A stretch of DNA of 64,000 bases from the IMG/VR virus record IMGVR_UViG_3300033141_001977; one strand, given 5' to 3'. This DNA is from an uncultured virus (IMG/VR IMGVR_UViG_3300033141_001977). Taxonomy: Duplodnaviria; Heunggongvirae; Uroviricota; Caudoviricetes. Shown here piece after piece: positions 1,370 to 4,945 of the stretch. The position numbers were made by a program, and so were the translations under genes. Every line of letters starts with the position of its first letter. Positions within the stretch are counted from its first letter, which is position 1. Under the pieces are notes generated by a model. It did no database searches, had not been told where the DNA came from, and saw nothing but the letters and a program-made list of their open reading frames with translations.

Positions 1370-1417
1370 GTTGTCTCCTCCCTTTGAGGAATTGGCGAGA
1401 GCATATTTCGATAGGTT

Positions 1418-1630
1418 TCATGCCGTCTCCTCCACCTTCCTTGTTTCCATCTTCTTGGCACATTGCTCAGAACATACCCGTGCGTTGAGGTCGTATCTGA
1501 ACCAGGCGGTCTTTTGGCCGCACATGTCACATGGGTATCTACCAAGCGGACTCCTGAGCAGTTTACCGTCTAGTTGTGTATCACTGAGCCTAGCGTCCGG
1601 GAACAGCGTGTCGTATCGGTTCTTAGGCAC
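1418..1630 (-). CDS. small zinc-binding protein
   Basis: CDMCG...VCSEQC; AGGAG RBS before GTG. Confidence 0.55.
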   Translation of the reverse strand: MPKNRYDTLFPDARLSDTQLDGKLLRSPLGRYPCDMCGQKTAWFRYDLNARVCSEQCAKKMETRKVEETA

Positions 1631-1642
1631 TGGCGTCTCCTT

Positions 1643-2599
1643 TCATTGTGGTAATAGCGTCAGCTGCTTGTCCGGGGGGCGCTCAACTAGACACCGTTGC
1701 CCTATTTGGGCTGCCGCCAGCCGGTTTTCTGTTATGGTGATGTATTCTGGGTTCAGCTCAGCGCCGATGTAGTCCCGTAGCAGTTGCTTGGCTACCACCG
1801 CCACCGTGCCTGCGCCCATAAAGGGGTCGAGGATGACGCCGGGGACGTAGGGGACGTTGCAGGAGCAGGATGAGAAGCCAATGGTGATATATTCGGAGTT
1901 CATTCGATGCCCTTTGGTATCATCCTTGATGCAACCATGCGTATCGTCCCTCGTATGATCACACCATGCTGTTCCAAGATGTTTTGCATAACCAGCTGTT
2001 GGGCGTCTCACCCTAACCCTCGGCAGGCCGCATTGGGGGCATACTTCCTTCGGGCAGCCTACTGTGATAACCTTTGCTGCAAGCTTATCTGGGAATGCTG
2101 CAAAATGCGCTTCTGGGCGCGGCTGAGTTGGTATCGACCAAATGTCACCGGGGTTTTCCCCGGCGGGGTTATTTGATAATTCAACAAAGCCCCTCTTCTC
2201 GCATTCCTTCTTTCTGCCCTCTTGTGAGCCTGACCCTGATTTGGTATTACAATCATAACGGGAAGCCCTATCTAACCCGGTCGCTGGCCGCTTCCTCACT
2301 GCATCGACGTCGAAGAAGTAGTTGACGGAACGCCAGTTTGGCCCATCACCTTTCTTATGCTGCATCAGCAACGTCTTCTGGTTGACGTAGAATTGAGCCT
2401 TGTTCGTCTTAGAGAACATGAAAACCGGCTCATAAGAGTTGGAGAAGCGATCGGTTACGCTAGATGGCATCGAGTTCGGTTTGTGCCAGATATTAACGTT
2501 ACGCGCTATAAATTGCCCGCTTTCTGGATATGGGTCAACAGGCTTAAAAAACTTAGATAGGCGCCGGGGGATTTCGTTAGGGAATAACCTAATCTTCAT
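1643..2599 (-). CDS. N4/N6 DNA methyltransferase, C-terminal piece (piece 3)
   Basis: RNVNIWHKPNSMPSSVTDR, EAHFAAFP, LDPFMGAGT (SAM motif I), IGAELNPEY; ATG at 2599 overlaps the HNH stop (TAATG). Confidence 0.9.
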   Translation of the reverse strand: MKIRLFPNEIPRRLSKFFKPVDPYPESGQFIARNVNIWHKPNSMPSSVTDRFSNSYEPVFMFSKTNKAQFYVNQKTLLMQHKKGDGPNWRSVNYFFDVDAVRKRPATGLDRASRYDCNTKSGSGSQEGRKKECEKRGFVELSNNPAGENPGDIWSIPTQPRPEAHFAAFPDKLAAKVITVGCPKEVCPQCGLPRVRVRRPTAGYAKHLGTAWCDHTRDDTHGCIKDDTKGHRMNSEYITIGFSSCSCNVPYVPGVILDPFMGAGTVAVVAKQLLRDYIGAELNPEYITITENRLAAAQIGQRCLVERPPDKQLTLLPQ

Positions 2600-3213
2600 T
2601 ACAATTCCCAAATAACAAACTTAGTATGGTGAAAAATAGACGAGAGTTTGGCATGACAAGCATGACACACGGTAATCAAATTGTCGTTGTCTAATCTAAG
2701 ATCAGGAAACTTACAATATGGTAAAATGTGGTGGATTTCCAACTTGCTACAATTTATCCCACAGACTTGACATAAATAAAAATCCCTCCGTAAAATCTCA
2801 GCCTTCTTTGCCTTCCATACACGGCTATCATAAAACCTTAATCGGTTCACCGTAATACCACCCTGCCAATTCCAATGATTCGCATCACGATGATCCTCAG
2901 CTGAGCAAGAATGCGAACAATACTTCCGGCCCATCTGTGAACGCCCTCCAACAAACGGCTTCCCGCACCGCAAACAATGTCTAGTTGTTTTGAATCGGTT
3001 GTGTAAGCACCGCATGGAACAATACTTAGATACATCCGCGCGGTACTGGTGGATATAGTATTTCTTGCCGCATCGCTTACAAACCAACTGCACTTTCTCC
3101 TTGTAAGCATGATGTTCCGCACCACACTTATTATAGGGGGCCGTGGGGCGTACCCCCCTTTCTCGGAGCGTGCATGATATTTTCTCTGCTTTAGTAAGGT
3201 TGCTTGTATCCAT
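2599..3213 (-). CDS. HNH (homing-type) endonuclease inserted in the methyltransferase gene
   Basis: CQVCG..LEIHHILP..DNDNLITVCHACH; two CxxCGK..KYCSxxC repeats and NHWNWQGG; visibly AT-richer than the flanks. Confidence 0.9.
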   Translation of the reverse strand: MDTSNLTKAEKISCTLRERGVRPTAPYNKCGAEHHAYKEKVQLVCKRCGKKYYIHQYRADVSKYCSMRCLHNRFKTTRHCLRCGKPFVGGRSQMGRKYCSHSCSAEDHRDANHWNWQGGITVNRLRFYDSRVWKAKKAEILRRDFYLCQVCGINCSKLEIHHILPYCKFPDLRLDNDNLITVCHACHAKLSSIFHHTKFVIWEL

Positions 3214-3611
3214 TATTCTATTATCCCAAGTAAGATCAATTCCTTAACAACATATTGTTTTTCTTCTTTCGTTAAATCGTCCCTGAGTTCCCACTTCCGT
3301 AGGTCGTCCATCATGGCTAAAACCAAACGATAATTCTGGAAGGCGAGGCATTTGGCGGGCGCCGGCTTCTCATATTTACGATTGAAGCGGTGGCCTTCCA
3401 TATCCTTATTCCCAGCATACCATTGTTCATGGCCCTTCCAATCAACATGAGCCGTGCCACTACAATAGTTGTCCCCATGATTCCACCAGAGCGTCCCGGT
3501 CGGCTTCAGCACCCGCTTCAGCTCTTTGGTAACGGCTAGCATCTTATCAATAAACTCGGCCAACGTCGGCTCAAGACCTATCTGGCCCTCAACGCCGTAG
3601 TCTCTGAGGCC
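3213..3611 (-). CDS. N4/N6 DNA methyltransferase, middle piece (piece 2); no convincing start codon of its own
   Basis: GLRDYGVEGQIGLEPT..KELKRVLKPTGTLWWNHGDNY; the ORF-track N-terminus (3695-3612) is an alternative frame of piece 1. Confidence 0.85.
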   Translation of the reverse strand, partial: GLRDYGVEGQIGLEPTLAEFIDKMLAVTKELKRVLKPTGTLWWNHGDNYCSGTAHVDWKGHEQWYAGNKDMEGHRFNRKYEKPAPAKCLAFQNYRLVLAMMDDLRKWELRDDLTKEEKQYVVKELILLGIIE

Positions 3612-3615
3612 GCAT

Positions 3616-3729
3616 TTACCAATACGGTGGCGATGTGAATATGCAGTCCACCGAGTCATCGGGGAGCATTTTGAGACGTTCGATAACGTCCCCACATAGC
3701 ACCGTATTTCTAATCTCCTTATTCAACAT
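3616..3729 (-). CDS. N4/N6 DNA methyltransferase, N-terminal 37 aa (piece 1)
   Basis: Translated by hand: MLNKEIRNTVLCGDVIERLKMLPDDSVDCIFTSPPYW* (catalytic motif IV SPPY); too short for the ORF track. Confidence 0.85.
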   Translation of the reverse strand: MLNKEIRNTVLCGDVIERLKMLPDDSVDCIFTSPPYW

Positions 3730-4078
3730 CTACTGGTTTGCCCTCTTCCCTCTCTTTGAGCCATGCCTTGAAATCGGCCTCTTCGACCCACCAGAGCTCA
3801 CAGTACTTCCCCATGAGCGGGTCGCATTCGTGTAGCACGATGATCGAGTAACCGCACACCCTGATTGGCCCGATCTCCGATGGTGCCGGGCGCTTGCATA
3901 GTTCTCTGTATGCTTGTAGCAGGACTTTCTCAATATCATATTGCATATCTTTGAGCTTCGGCCCTTCCCAACGAAAGCCGGTATCGTGGGCGAAGGTTAC
4001 AATTGCAGCCCGTATATCATGGGTATTGGGGTAACGTTCGCGCCAAAACCTCATTGGGACTGGTCTATATTCAGTCAT
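3719..4078 (-). CDS. hypothetical protein
   Basis: Probable start MTEYRP with ATGA overlap to a 55-aa upstream ORF at 4075..4242. Confidence 0.55.
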   Translation of the reverse strand: MTEYRPVPMRFWRERYPNTHDIRAAIVTFAHDTGFRWEGPKLKDMQYDIEKVLLQAYRELCKRPAPSEIGPIRVCGYSIIVLHECDPLMGKYCELWWVEEADFKAWLKEREEGKPVDVE

Positions 4079-4231
4079 TTTTCGTCCCTGCTCATCACTT
4101 TCTCCTTCACCTGGTTGGTAGGCATGTGGTCTGCCTCCTCGTCCGGTGTGGCCAGCCGCCTCTCGATTGAGCCATCTTTCTTGATTGTGATCACATACAG
4201 TGGGAATATGATGTTGAGCCACTGTTGCGGG

Positions 4232-4945
4232 CTAATGTTCATGGTTAAACTCACAGTCCGCCGGGTGCCAAGATTTCTTACCTTCAGCTAAATCAATGAG
4301 AATCCAATGTCCGTCCGCCGCCCGGCAGAAGTCGACTGACCAGTAGCCCTCGAACTTGGCGGCAACCCATTCGGCATAGTTACGTAGCTGCCATGTGGTG
4401 TCTGGCCGCTTGCACGCTATCTGTTGTAACGCCATCCGCTCTCGCCAGTCGGGTGCGGACGGGGCATGTATCGCGTCCTCAGCCCAATACCAATGCTGAC
4501 ACTCGGCCTTCCCGTCGCGGACGAAGAAGCGTATCTCAGGGTTGACGGGCATGTTGCCCCTGAAGGCCGTGAACAGCGTGGCCATCGGGATATATTCCCG
4601 GACGGCGAATGCGTTGATCGGCAGGTCTGCCATCATCGACGCCTCAACCAGGTTGAAAACGCATCGCCCTAACCGCTCATCGCTCTCGACAAAGCAGGTG
4701 TCAGACCATTCATGTTTGGCGGAGAGATGGTCGGTGCGCAGAAACAGCGGAAAGCCCATCCGAATGCAGGCGTCGCGTAGTTTAACTACGAGGCATCCGG
4801 GTGGATGGGTCATGCCATAGATCCAGTTATGTGGCCATTCCCGACCATACTCCCTGACATCAACTATCATCGTCTTCGGCTGCGGTATCGGCAGGTCTTT
4901 TATCCGTGGGAACCAGAACAACATACTGGATTTGTCTTCAGTCAT
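4232..4945 (-). CDS. ATP-grasp domain protein (R2K-like)
   Basis: FLRTDHLSAKH, VREYIP, EIRFFVRDGK, WSVDF..GHWILIDL. Confidence 0.7.
   Translation of the reverse strand: MTEDKSSMLFWFPRIKDLPIPQPKTMIVDVREYGREWPHNWIYGMTHPPGCLVVKLRDACIRMGFPLFLRTDHLSAKHEWSDTCFVESDERLGRCVFNLVEASMMADLPINAFAVREYIPMATLFTAFRGNMPVNPEIRFFVRDGKAECQHWYWAEDAIHAPSAPDWRERMALQQIACKRPDTTWQLRNYAEWVAAKFEGYWSVDFCRAADGHWILIDLAEGKKSWHPADCEFNHEH

What the first reader, a model, noticed from the sequence alone, without database searches (positions are those of the whole stretch)
1643..3729. Methyltransferase gene in pieces: an HNH element that seems to carry its own re-joining peptide tags instead of splicing
Seen: a beta-class N4/N6 methyltransferase is cut between ..NYRLVLAMMD and QFIARNVNIWHKPN, which are normally almost contiguous. 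The AT-rich insert of about 800 nt is wholly coding and coupled by two TAATG overlaps. It adds about 29 aa to the upstream piece (LRKWELRDDLTKEEKQYVVKELILLGIIE*), then the HNH gene, then about 28 aa on the downstream piece (MKIRLFPNEIPRRLSKFFKPVDPYPESG). There is no non-coding room for a group I/II core and no intein ends, yet the catalytic and SAM motifs remain intact. Known: in phage Aeh1 the HNH gene mobE splits nrdA into pieces that reassemble as proteins. Inference: the two tags are a split docking module carried by the element, letting a homing nuclease invade genes without RNA or protein splicing, a third route beside introns and inteins.
Basis: partly seen in the sequence, partly recalled or inferred. 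Interest (0 to 1): 0.88.

Follow-up and report, generated by a model that had tools for sequence, protein, structure and literature searches.

The report
Nuclease cassette with paired tails splits methyltransferase
A selfish nuclease gene has cut a phage DNA-methyltransferase gene in two, and the two short peptide tails at the cut belong to a conserved pair that recurs at four different break points in such genes, probably to hold the enzyme halves together without any splicing.

Summary
The described anatomy is real: on the minus strand a beta-class N4/N6 DNA methyltransferase is cut by a 204-aa HNH gene, with a TAATG stop/start overlap at each junction and extensions of 30 aa and 28 aa. A 7-nt insert just after motif IV (SPPYW) puts a stop and a frame shift between the first 37 codons and the rest, so this copy may be dead or need recoding.

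The tails are not private to this insert. A profile of them found 11 representative proteins, all methyltransferase pieces. Contigs show the same pair around three kinds or orientations of HNH gene at four sites of the enzyme. The pair also occurs with a 14-nt spacer and no nuclease, and fused in frame as a 58-aa insert. Carriers are scattered on the methyltransferase tree. The tails are better conserved than host or nuclease (dN 0.2-0.4, dS saturated), oppositely charged, and predicted (pLDDT about 80) to fold together.

No intron or intein fits. Docking itself is not shown. The principle is published for phage Aeh1 NrdA (PMC3045599); what is new is a portable homologous tail family. Earlier notes of this scan report the same cassette on other DNA.

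The parts
3616..3729 (-). Methyltransferase piece 1a: 37 codons plus TAA, carrying catalytic motif IV (SPPYW)
   Evidence: ORF list; sequence; aligns with the N-termini of homologs
3612..3618 (-). 7-nt insert TAAATGC between the Trp codon and GGC of GLRDYG. It brings a stop and a +1 frame change. A UGG and a UGC codon flank the stop.
   Evidence: Homologs read SPPYW-GLRDYG without a gap. Similar small inserts sit at the same spot in L034, L092 and L095.
3306..3611 (-). Methyltransferase piece 1b core (GLRDYG .. QNYRLVLAMMD), in another frame than piece 1a
   Evidence: Pfam N6_N4_Mtase 31.7 bits against cut-off 26.7; PHROG 67; alignment
3213..3305 (-). N tail: 30 acidic codons (net -2, pI 4.9) plus stop; core motif RDDLT..E..Y/F-V/I...EL
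   Evidence: Homologous tails end the N pieces of L004, L095, L096, L100 and L082 and of P0127, P0129 and P0130.
2599..3213 (-). HNH endonuclease gene, 204 aa: CxxC zinc-ribbon repeats followed by the HNH core. Start and stop overlap the neighbouring genes in TAATG.
   Evidence: Pfam HNH 1.4e-7; PHROG 1271 9.9e-27; H161, H162, N178 and H187 invariant among relatives. It is the only HNH match with E below 0.1 in the window.
2516..2599 (-). C tail: 28 basic codons (net +3, pI 10.0); core motif IP..L.K-F/Y-FKP
   Evidence: The same tail starts P0005, P0066 (L004), P0124, P0125 and P0128 and the C pieces of L095 and L100; weaker in L096 and L082.
1643..2515 (-). Methyltransferase piece 2 core (GQFIARNVNIWHKPN .. 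DPFMGAGT ..) plus stop
   Evidence: Pfam N6_N4_Mtase 93.3 bits against cut-off 26.7; 597 homologs

Best explanation
A mobile cassette sits in a surface loop of the phage's beta-class DNA methyltransferase, between the helix ..QNYRLVLAMMD and the strand GQFIARNVNIW. The cassette reads: acidic tail, stop, HNH nuclease gene, start, basic tail.

The two enzyme halves are translated separately, coupled to the nuclease gene through TAATG stop/start overlaps (shown). The two tails are the halves of one conserved module of about 58 aa, predicted to fold as strand-helix / strand-strand. This module moves among methyltransferase genes together with homing nuclease genes and is kept by selection on its peptide sequence (shown by comparison).

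Its likely job is to clasp the two halves, or otherwise make the break harmless, so that the nuclease gene can live inside a coding region without RNA or protein splicing (inferred). This is the principle shown for the mobE-split NrdA of phage Aeh1. When the nuclease gene is lost, the tails stay behind, either as a two-gene junction or fused into an in-frame insert.

The window's copy has a further 7-nt insert at motif IV. This copy is therefore either inactive or needs a short translational hop.
For: Anatomy.

Distribution of the tails:
- An exhaustive profile search of 1.84 billion representatives gave 11 hits at E <= 1e-3, all methyltransferase pieces. Two are fused; five have the C tail at residues 1-30; four have the N tail at the very C-terminus.
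- Only 3 of the 120 listed homologs of the C piece carry the module.

Contexts:
- L004: both tails, a 14-nt spacer with GAGGAG, no nuclease gene.
- L005/L006: tails fused in one 505-aa ORF.
- L095: tails around an unrelated 172-aa ORF at the same site. L097 is the same locus with a 209-nt deletion in that ORF.
- L100: tails around a window-type HNH gene at another site.
- L096: tails around a window-type HNH gene on the opposite strand at a third site.
- L082: diverged tails around an HNH gene with a different N-terminal half at a fourth site.
- Alignment A14 maps the four sites.

Tail HMMs, built without these loci, against 6722 ORFs: N tail scores L095 2.9e-9, L097 1.1e-7, L096 2.2e-7, L082 0.03. 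C tail scores L095 and L097 0.0067, L082 0.42. L096 is not among the 7 top rows shown (E 3.2 or better).

Tree of 122 C-terminal parts: the 7 carriers need 6 changes, at least 4 of them forced by well-supported branches. The window is sister to module-less P0002/P0003 (support 99), and P0005 groups with module-less P0011/P0021 (support 97).

Selection: the tails are 70-73% identical between loci whose flanks are 32-43% identical. dN is 0.20-0.41 with dS at least 1.08 or saturated over 35 core codons. The nuclease genes between the tails are only 27-41% identical where they match at all.

Composition: the tails share the low GC3 of the HNH gene.

Charge: N tails pI 4.8-5.3; C tails pI 9.3-10.0 in 4 of 5 loci.

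Fold: AlphaFold2 of the fused module alone gives mean pLDDT 79.7 and pTM 0.56, with strand 4-7 and helix 13-26 from the N tail and strands 32-34 and 46-49 from the C tail. In the whole L005 protein the linker at the split point (161-163) has pLDDT below 50.

Precedent: PMC3045599.
Against: - No binding or activity test exists. The function of the tails is inferred from conservation and a moderate-confidence model.
- In Aeh1 the tails were not needed for the two fragments to pair; they were needed for a higher assembly (PMC3045599, discussion). 'Clasp' may therefore be the wrong picture.
- All carriers are methyltransferases of one superfamily, so a host-specific role of the module is not excluded.
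- The tails persist without a nuclease gene and around unrelated ones. 'Carried by the HNH element' is a history inferred from patchy distribution, not an observed transfer.
- Synonymous sites are saturated, so no recent transfer is visible.
- The L082 case rests on marginal scores (E 0.03 and 0.42) plus position. L096's C tail is recognisable by eye only.
- Only 7 independent genomic contexts could be read. The contigs of P0005, P0123-P0125 and P0127-P0130 were not retrievable.
- The window's gene has a frame break at motif IV, so the cassette here may sit in a dead gene.
Confidence: 0.62

Rival explanations
1. The 58-aa module is a native insertion domain of one methyltransferase lineage with a role of its own, for example oligomerisation or DNA contact. 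Nuclease genes merely landed in its floppy linker. On this reading the tails are not part of any mobile unit.
For: Fused in-frame forms exist (L005/L006, P0123). All 11 profile hits are methyltransferases. L004 has the split without a nuclease gene. Different nuclease genes occupy the same junction. Synonymous sites are saturated.
Against: The pair stands at four different positions of the enzyme core. Carriers are scattered on the tree, each next to module-less sisters. In the window the tails have the GC3 of the HNH gene rather than that of the host.
Confidence: 0.15
2. The tails are translated ends of the insert that only supply the stop, ribosome-binding site and start. Their peptides do nothing, and the two enzyme halves find each other through the native fold.
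For: In Aeh1 the tail-less fragments still formed the heterodimer (PMC3045599, discussion read). No binding data exist here.
Against: Peptide-level selection is strong: dN 0.20-0.41 with saturated dS. The tails are more conserved than the host flanks and than the nuclease genes. The charge pattern is conserved. The motif is kept across loci whose N tails are encoded by visibly different codons.
Confidence: 0.1
3. The window's methyltransferase is a recent pseudogene. The 7-nt insert at motif IV killed it, and the cassette is now a passenger in a decaying gene.
For: A stop plus a frame shift follows SPPYW. The landing codon for a hop is only a 2-of-3 match (UGG against UGC). No in-frame start with a ribosome-binding site lies nearby.
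Against: The other 448 codons are open and the tails and motifs are intact. Three further independent loci carry small inserts at exactly this spot with the rest of the gene open. In each, same-tRNA codons flank a stop: L034 CTT TAG CTA, L095 TTG TAG TTG, L092 TAT TGA C TAC. Random decay would not produce that pattern.
Confidence: 0.45
4. An unrecognised self-splicing intron or an intein removes the insert.
For: Homing nuclease genes usually live in introns or inteins. L004 does carry an intein elsewhere in the gene.
Against: No Rfam match on the insert at E <= 10. The insert is coding from end to end. The same tails occur 14 nt apart and also fused. Pfam finds nothing in the module. The tails are 24-30 aa long and lack the Cys/Ser or His-Asn junction residues.
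Confidence: 0.02

Closest known systems
Phage Aeh1 nrdA-a / mobE / nrdA-b, 'genes in pieces' with insert-derived tails (Crona et al. 2011, PMC3045599; abstract, introduction and discussion read)
   Same: A free-standing HNH gene splits an enzyme gene in a loop of the fold. C- and N-terminal tails absent from uninterrupted homologs sit at the break. The tails carry opposite charges. There is a GC dip over the insert. No RNA or protein splicing is involved.
   Different: In Aeh1 the tails are unique sequences, and the authors expected such tails to escape similarity searches. Here the tails form a homologous family found at four sites, around different nuclease genes, without a nuclease gene, and fused. 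The charge polarity is reversed (N tail acidic here). Function is shown for Aeh1 and not shown here.
Fractured genes: split intein halves flanking a free-standing nuclease gene (Dassa et al. 2009, PMC2677866; abstract and section outline seen)
   Same: Same gene order: host half plus peptide, nuclease gene, peptide plus host half. Found mainly in phage metagenomes.
   Different: Those peptides are split inteins that ligate the halves. The tails here are 24-30 aa with no intein or Hint match, so the halves should stay separate.
T4 mobA / gene 60 cassette with the 50-nt translational bypass (Manning and Atkins, bioRxiv 10.1101/2022.08.31.505936, abstract seen; review PMC5009743, passages read)
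   Same: A nuclease-associated insert lies inside a coding region and is neutralised at translation. A stop codon follows a take-off codon that has a matching codon downstream.
   Different: The inserts at motif IV here are 6-7 nt, not 50 nt. No bypass has been shown, and in the window the landing codon is only a near match.
ShiLan domain / hidden HNH in actinophage methylases (Arsenault et al. 2025, PMC11855218, abstract read and passages searched; Gosselin et al. 2023, PMC9957025, abstract read)
   Same: Phage orphan methylases are hot spots for HNH genes, inteins and other inserts at conserved sites, with a patchy distribution.
   Different: There the host frame stays open through the out-of-frame HNH gene, giving one polypeptide. 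The paper's main text holds no 'split' or 'fragment'. In the window the gene is cut into separate ORFs with tails. Phage BUCT618 (L003) shows the hidden-HNH layout.

Membership tests
Beta-class N4/N6 DNA methyltransferase (Pfam PF01555) | Profile match above the curated cut-off | tested here: met
   N piece 31.7 bits and C piece 93.3 bits against a cut-off of 26.7
Beta-class N4/N6 DNA methyltransferase (Pfam PF01555) | Motif order of the beta class: (S/D)PPY near the N-terminus, SAM motif FxGxG near the C-terminus | tested here: met
   SPPYW in ORF 3729..3616 and DPFMGAGT near the end of 2599..1643. Motif IV is out of frame with the rest. The motif names are recalled.
Beta-class N4/N6 DNA methyltransferase (Pfam PF01555) | Fold like solved beta-class enzymes | tested here: met
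   Tested on the fused relative L005 only: Foldseek matches M.BceJIV 5e-14, M.MboIIA 1.1e-12, M.RsrI 2.2e-12
HNH homing endonuclease | HNH core with catalytic His, Asn, His and zinc-binding Cys pairs | tested here: met
   Pfam HNH 32.0 bits against cut-off 21.4; PHROG 1271 9.9e-27; H161, H162, N178, C183, C186 and H187 invariant in alignment A8
HNH homing endonuclease | Cuts the insert-free allele and is copied into it | not testable with these tools
   Only indirect signs: patchy distribution, a GC island, a decaying copy in L097
Insert-derived assembly tails (Aeh1 NrdA type) | Tails at the break that uninterrupted homologs lack | tested here: met
Insert-derived assembly tails (Aeh1 NrdA type) | Tails required for activity or assembly | not testable with these tools
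   Needs expression of the pieces with and without tails
Group I / II intron | Structured RNA core | tested here: not met
   No Rfam match on the insert at E <= 10. The insert is wholly coding. The same junction is 14 nt long in L004.
Intein / split intein | Hint blocks and junction nucleophiles | tested here: not met
   No Pfam family in the 58-aa module at E <= 0.01. Tails are 24-30 aa. No Cys/Ser at the start of the N tail and no His-Asn plus Cys/Ser/Thr at the end of the C tail.
Translational bypass / stop-hop | [quoted passage not shown] | tested here: inconclusive
   Window: UGG UAA A UGC, a 2-of-3 match; the hop would give the consensus WGLRDYG. L095 (UUG UAG UUG), L034 (CUU UAG CUA) and L092 (UAU UGA C UAC) match better. 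Translation was not tested.

The most novel reading that the evidence does not exclude
The tail pair is a portable, self-sufficient two-part mini-domain that travels with homing nuclease genes. It makes their insertion into almost any loop of a host enzyme harmless by clasping the two halves. That would be a general, heritable alternative to introns and inteins, and a natural counterpart of engineered split-protein tags.

The same genes may also hold the first natural 'stop-hops': 6-7-nt inserts at the nuclease target in motif IV that ribosomes skip between matched codons.
Probability: 0.35. Interest if true: 0.85.

Novelty: new variant of a known kind. Interest (0 to 1): 0.7.

Why it matters
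Tails that rescue a nuclease-split gene were shown once, for phage Aeh1 NrdA. They were thought to be one-off sequences that similarity searches could not detect. A conserved tail family that recurs at four break points, around different nuclease genes, and survives nuclease loss as a 'healed' in-frame insert would turn that single case into a general mechanism. It has a traceable life cycle and is directly testable by deleting or transplanting the tails. It would also offer small natural heterodimerising tags.

The recurrent tiny inserts at motif IV, each with matched codons around a stop, give candidates for natural short translational hops. A 2016 review said no natural in-frame case was known (PMC5009743, passages read).

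In the open-access library I found no description of tail-bearing split methyltransferases (searches; PMC11855218 checked).

Tried and rejected
- **Complex prediction of the two 30-aa tails** (alignments A10 and A11): no verdict. Score 0.30 against a mark of 0.32; controls were not run.
- **Fold search of the 58-aa module model** against 48,161 solved chains: best Z 3.7 (UreE). Nothing stands out.
- **Family searches on the module and on L095's ORF.** Pfam on the module: no family. Pfam, PHROGs and NCBIfam on the 172-aa ORF of L095: nothing significant. The protein atlas gave only a lead to HNH clusters (score 0.95; 41% of members carry PF01844).
- **Sequencing runs:** no RNA holder is listed. 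The one DNA run held a single 229-nt contig (3245..3473), so the reads say nothing about the motif IV insert or about splicing.
- **Similarity searches that gave nothing.** blastn of 1400..4000 against the phage collection: no match. tblastn of the C tail against phages: one chance hit. Word-indexed search restricted to residues 1-40 of the C piece: only itself. Both genome-contig scans with the tails: nothing.
- **P0005 contig** was not found in viral contigs. It did not turn up in the tail scan of metagenome contigs either.
- **L001, L008 and L093** are the window's own sequence, so they are not independent. **L007** is a cyclophilin with a chance 11-aa look-alike and was dropped.
- **Of 79 loci with HNH relatives**, only L082 carried both tails.
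- **L100 rows of the dN/dS table** were dropped because I gave a wrong frame.
- **TAG=Q reading of L095**: joins the two N-terminal ORFs and adds one in-frame TAG in one other long plus-strand ORF. The other plus-strand ORFs of 100 aa or more need no TAG (one minus-strand ORF carries two). General recoding is unlikely, but read-through is not excluded.
- **A +1 slip at UGG UAA** was considered and rejected by eye, because the shifted codon would not pair.
- **The LAGLIDADG reading of the L082 insert** rests on E 0.093 only.
Full report
**1. What is in the window**

All genes of the region lie on the minus strand.
- A 37-codon ORF (3729..3616) encodes the N-terminus of a beta-class N4/N6 DNA methyltransferase, up to motif IV (SPPYW), and stops at TAA.
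- Seven extra bases (TAAATGC, 3618..3612) separate the Trp codon from GGC CTC AGA GAC TAC GGC (GLRDYG). The enzyme therefore continues in another frame.
- That second frame runs to 3213. After ..QNYRLVLAMMD it adds 30 residues that uninterrupted homologs lack.
- Its TAA overlaps the ATG of a 204-aa HNH gene (3213..2599). Support for the HNH call: Pfam HNH 32.0 bits against a cut-off of 21.4; PHROG 1271 at 9.9e-27; catalytic His, Asn and His invariant among relatives.
- The TAA of the HNH gene overlaps the ATG of the 318-aa C piece (2599..1643). This piece begins with 28 extra residues before GQFIARNVNIWHKPN and carries the SAM motif (93.3 bits).
- The insert is AT-richer than the host gene. 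GC3 is 0.40, 0.46 and 0.47 for N tail, HNH and C tail, against 0.59-0.63 for the methyltransferase core.
- No Rfam family matches the insert at E <= 10.

The contig is viral. An IMG/VR contig is identical over 7213 bases. It sits in a 4.1-Mb binned assembly.

**2. The tails are a family**

The C tail turned up at the start of a distant homolog, P0005 (34% identity overall). I built a profile of both tails from the window, L004 and the fused L005 form and ran it over 1.84 billion representative proteins. It gave 11 hits at E <= 1e-3, all of them methyltransferase pieces:
- two fused forms (P0122, P0123);
- five C pieces with the tail at residues 1-30 or 1-26;
- four N pieces with the tail at their very C-terminus.

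Of the 120 listed homologs of the C piece, only 3 carry the module.

**3. Contexts**

| Locus | Site | What lies between the tails |
|---|---|---|
| Window | A, after helix ..MMD | window-type zinc-ribbon HNH gene |
| L004 | A | 14 nt holding GAGGAG; no nuclease gene |
| L005 / L006 | A | nothing: one 505-aa ORF, tails fused in frame |
| L095 | A | a 172-aa ORF unrelated by BLAST to the other nucleases |
| L097 | A | as L095, with a 209-nt deletion in that ORF |
| L100 | D, after WLNLGSS | window-type HNH gene |
| L096 | C, after GLEPTPD | window-type HNH gene on the opposite strand |
| L082 | B, after WGLRQY | HNH gene with a different N-terminal half; tails diverged |

- L004 comes from a 188-kb viral contig. 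Its N piece also holds an intein at motif IV.
- The L095 ORF reads like an HNH core by eye and by language-model neighbours only. L097 is 99.7% identical to L095, so the deletion marks a decaying nuclease gene.
- Alignment A14 against the uninterrupted P0007 shows where each native sequence stops and resumes.
- Tail HMMs, built without these loci, were run against 6722 ORFs. The N tail scores L095 2.9e-9, L097 1.1e-7, L096 2.2e-7 and L082 0.03. The C tail scores L095 and L097 0.0067 and L082 0.42. L096 is not among the top rows.
- In an earlier run over 6341 ORFs of 79 HNH loci, the top hit of each HMM was one of the two ORFs that flank the L082 nuclease gene, at the correct termini. Only this 1 of the 79 loci had both tails.

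**4. Evolution**
- On a tree of the C-terminal parts (122 rows, 249 columns; module columns excluded by trimming), the 7 carriers need 6 changes, at least 4 of them forced by well-supported branches. Shuffled labels did as well in 53 of 500 trials, so the carriers are not clustered.
- The window groups with module-less P0002 and P0003 (support 99). P0005 groups with module-less P0011 and P0021 (support 97).
- P0130, an N piece, matches P0011/P0021 over its first part, but near the break it shares QNYRGILKM with the distant fused P0123. By eye this looks like a conversion tract.
- Between window, L004 and L005 the tails are 50-73% identical in protein where 60-codon flanks are 32-50%.
- Over 35 core codons dN is 0.20-0.41 and dS is at least 1.08 or saturated (L100 rows dropped for a frame slip).
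- The nuclease genes between the tails are 27-41% identical where they match at all.

The tails are therefore old, selected as peptides, better kept than host or nuclease, and patchy in distribution.

**5. Likely mechanism**
- The N tails are acidic (pI 4.8-5.3). The C tails are basic (pI 9.3-10.0) in 4 of 5 loci; L082's C tail is acidic.
- AlphaFold2 of the fused 58-aa module alone gives mean pLDDT 79.7 and pTM 0.56. A strand and a helix come from the N tail and two strands from the C tail.
- In the whole L005 protein (mean pLDDT 77.4) the linker at the split point has pLDDT below 50. The protein matches solved beta-class enzymes.

I infer that the tails form one small domain across the break. 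Shown: the anatomy, the homology of the tails, the four sites, the selection. Inferred: docking, the need for it, and movement together with nuclease genes.

**6. Second break at motif IV**

Besides the window (+7 nt), three independent loci have small inserts at the same spot while the rest of the gene stays open:
- L034 / L091: CTT TAG CTA, in frame.
- L095 / L097: TTG TAG TTG, in frame.
- L092: TAT TGA C TAC GGC.

In each locus a codon for the same tRNA flanks the stop (in the window, UGG and UGC). Skipping the stop and the landing codon gives the consensus protein; in L092 the result lacks the Trp.

This is the design of the 'stop-hops' made with synthetic constructs. A 2016 review knew no natural in-frame case (PMC5009743, passages read; a search found no later report).

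The rival readings are scars of nuclease cutting, read-through, or a real split with restart. L004 has an intein at this spot, and L082 has its cassette four codons further on. In L034 and L092 an HNH gene lies directly upstream. I cannot decide between these readings. For the window I put the odds of a dead gene near one half.

**7. Comparison with what is known**
- Crona et al. 2011 (PMC3045599) showed that tails which arose with the mobE insertion are essential for the split NrdA of phage Aeh1. They proposed this as a general answer to fragmentation and expected such tails to vary too much for similarity searches.
- Dassa et al. 2009 (PMC2677866, abstract) described the same gene order with split inteins in place of tails.
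- Gosselin et al. 2023 and Arsenault et al. 2025 (PMC9957025 and PMC11855218, abstracts) described inteins and hidden, out-of-frame HNH genes in actinophage methylases. The 2025 text holds no 'split' or 'fragment'.
- Searches found no paper on tail-bearing split methyltransferases. Supplements were not consulted.
- Notes of this scan report the same kind of cassette on other DNA. I read them after my own analysis. They gave me the lead to the ShiLan papers. I could not check whether their peptides are the same family.

**8. Verdict**

This is a real feature. The principle is known; the new variant is a conserved, portable tail pair. The docking function is unproven, and the window's own copy may be inactive.

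Noticed in passing
window 3612-3621 (minus strand); L034 2856-2876; L095 1640-1660; L092 3078-3100: Four independent methyltransferase genes carry inserts of 6-7 nt exactly after motif IV. In each, a stop codon is flanked by codons for the same or nearly the same tRNA, and skipping it restores the consensus protein. They are candidate natural stop-hops or scars of nuclease cutting.
   Followed up: partly
L003 (phage BUCT618, OM735461) 2489-4351: The annotated 621-aa methyltransferase ORF stays open through a 201-aa HNH ORF (2902-3507) lying in another frame. This is the published 'hidden HNH' (ShiLan) layout. The HNH is 31% identical to the window's.
   Followed up: partly
L011 1818-3761: A TDPPYG-type methyltransferase lies in three ORFs, with a window-like HNH gene (40% identical) between the second and third. 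It has no tails of this family, but both pieces have other extensions at the break.
   Followed up: no
L004 4163-5986: The N piece of this split methyltransferase also holds a LAGLIDADG-type intein inserted right after SPPYW. That is the same spot as the window's 7-nt insert.
   Followed up: partly
L082 3084-3671: An in-frame insert of about 190 aa sits at the window's break point (between helix and strand). It has only a weak LAGLIDADG_1 match (E 0.093). It may be a nuclease domain carried as a loop.
   Followed up: partly
L034 2099-2773: An HNH ORF is fused in frame to a duplicated first 27 codons of the methyltransferase. A second complete start of the methyltransferase follows, overlapping the HNH 3' end.
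   Followed up: no
L097 3076-3058 region compared with L095 2108-2316: A 209-nt deletion removes the N-tail stop and the 5' half of the inserted nuclease-like ORF, between two contigs that are 99.7% identical. It is a snapshot of nuclease decay.
   Followed up: yes
window 3719-3729: The methyltransferase start overlaps the end of the upstream 167-aa gene by 11 nt. Genes are tightly packed all along this strand.
   Followed up: no
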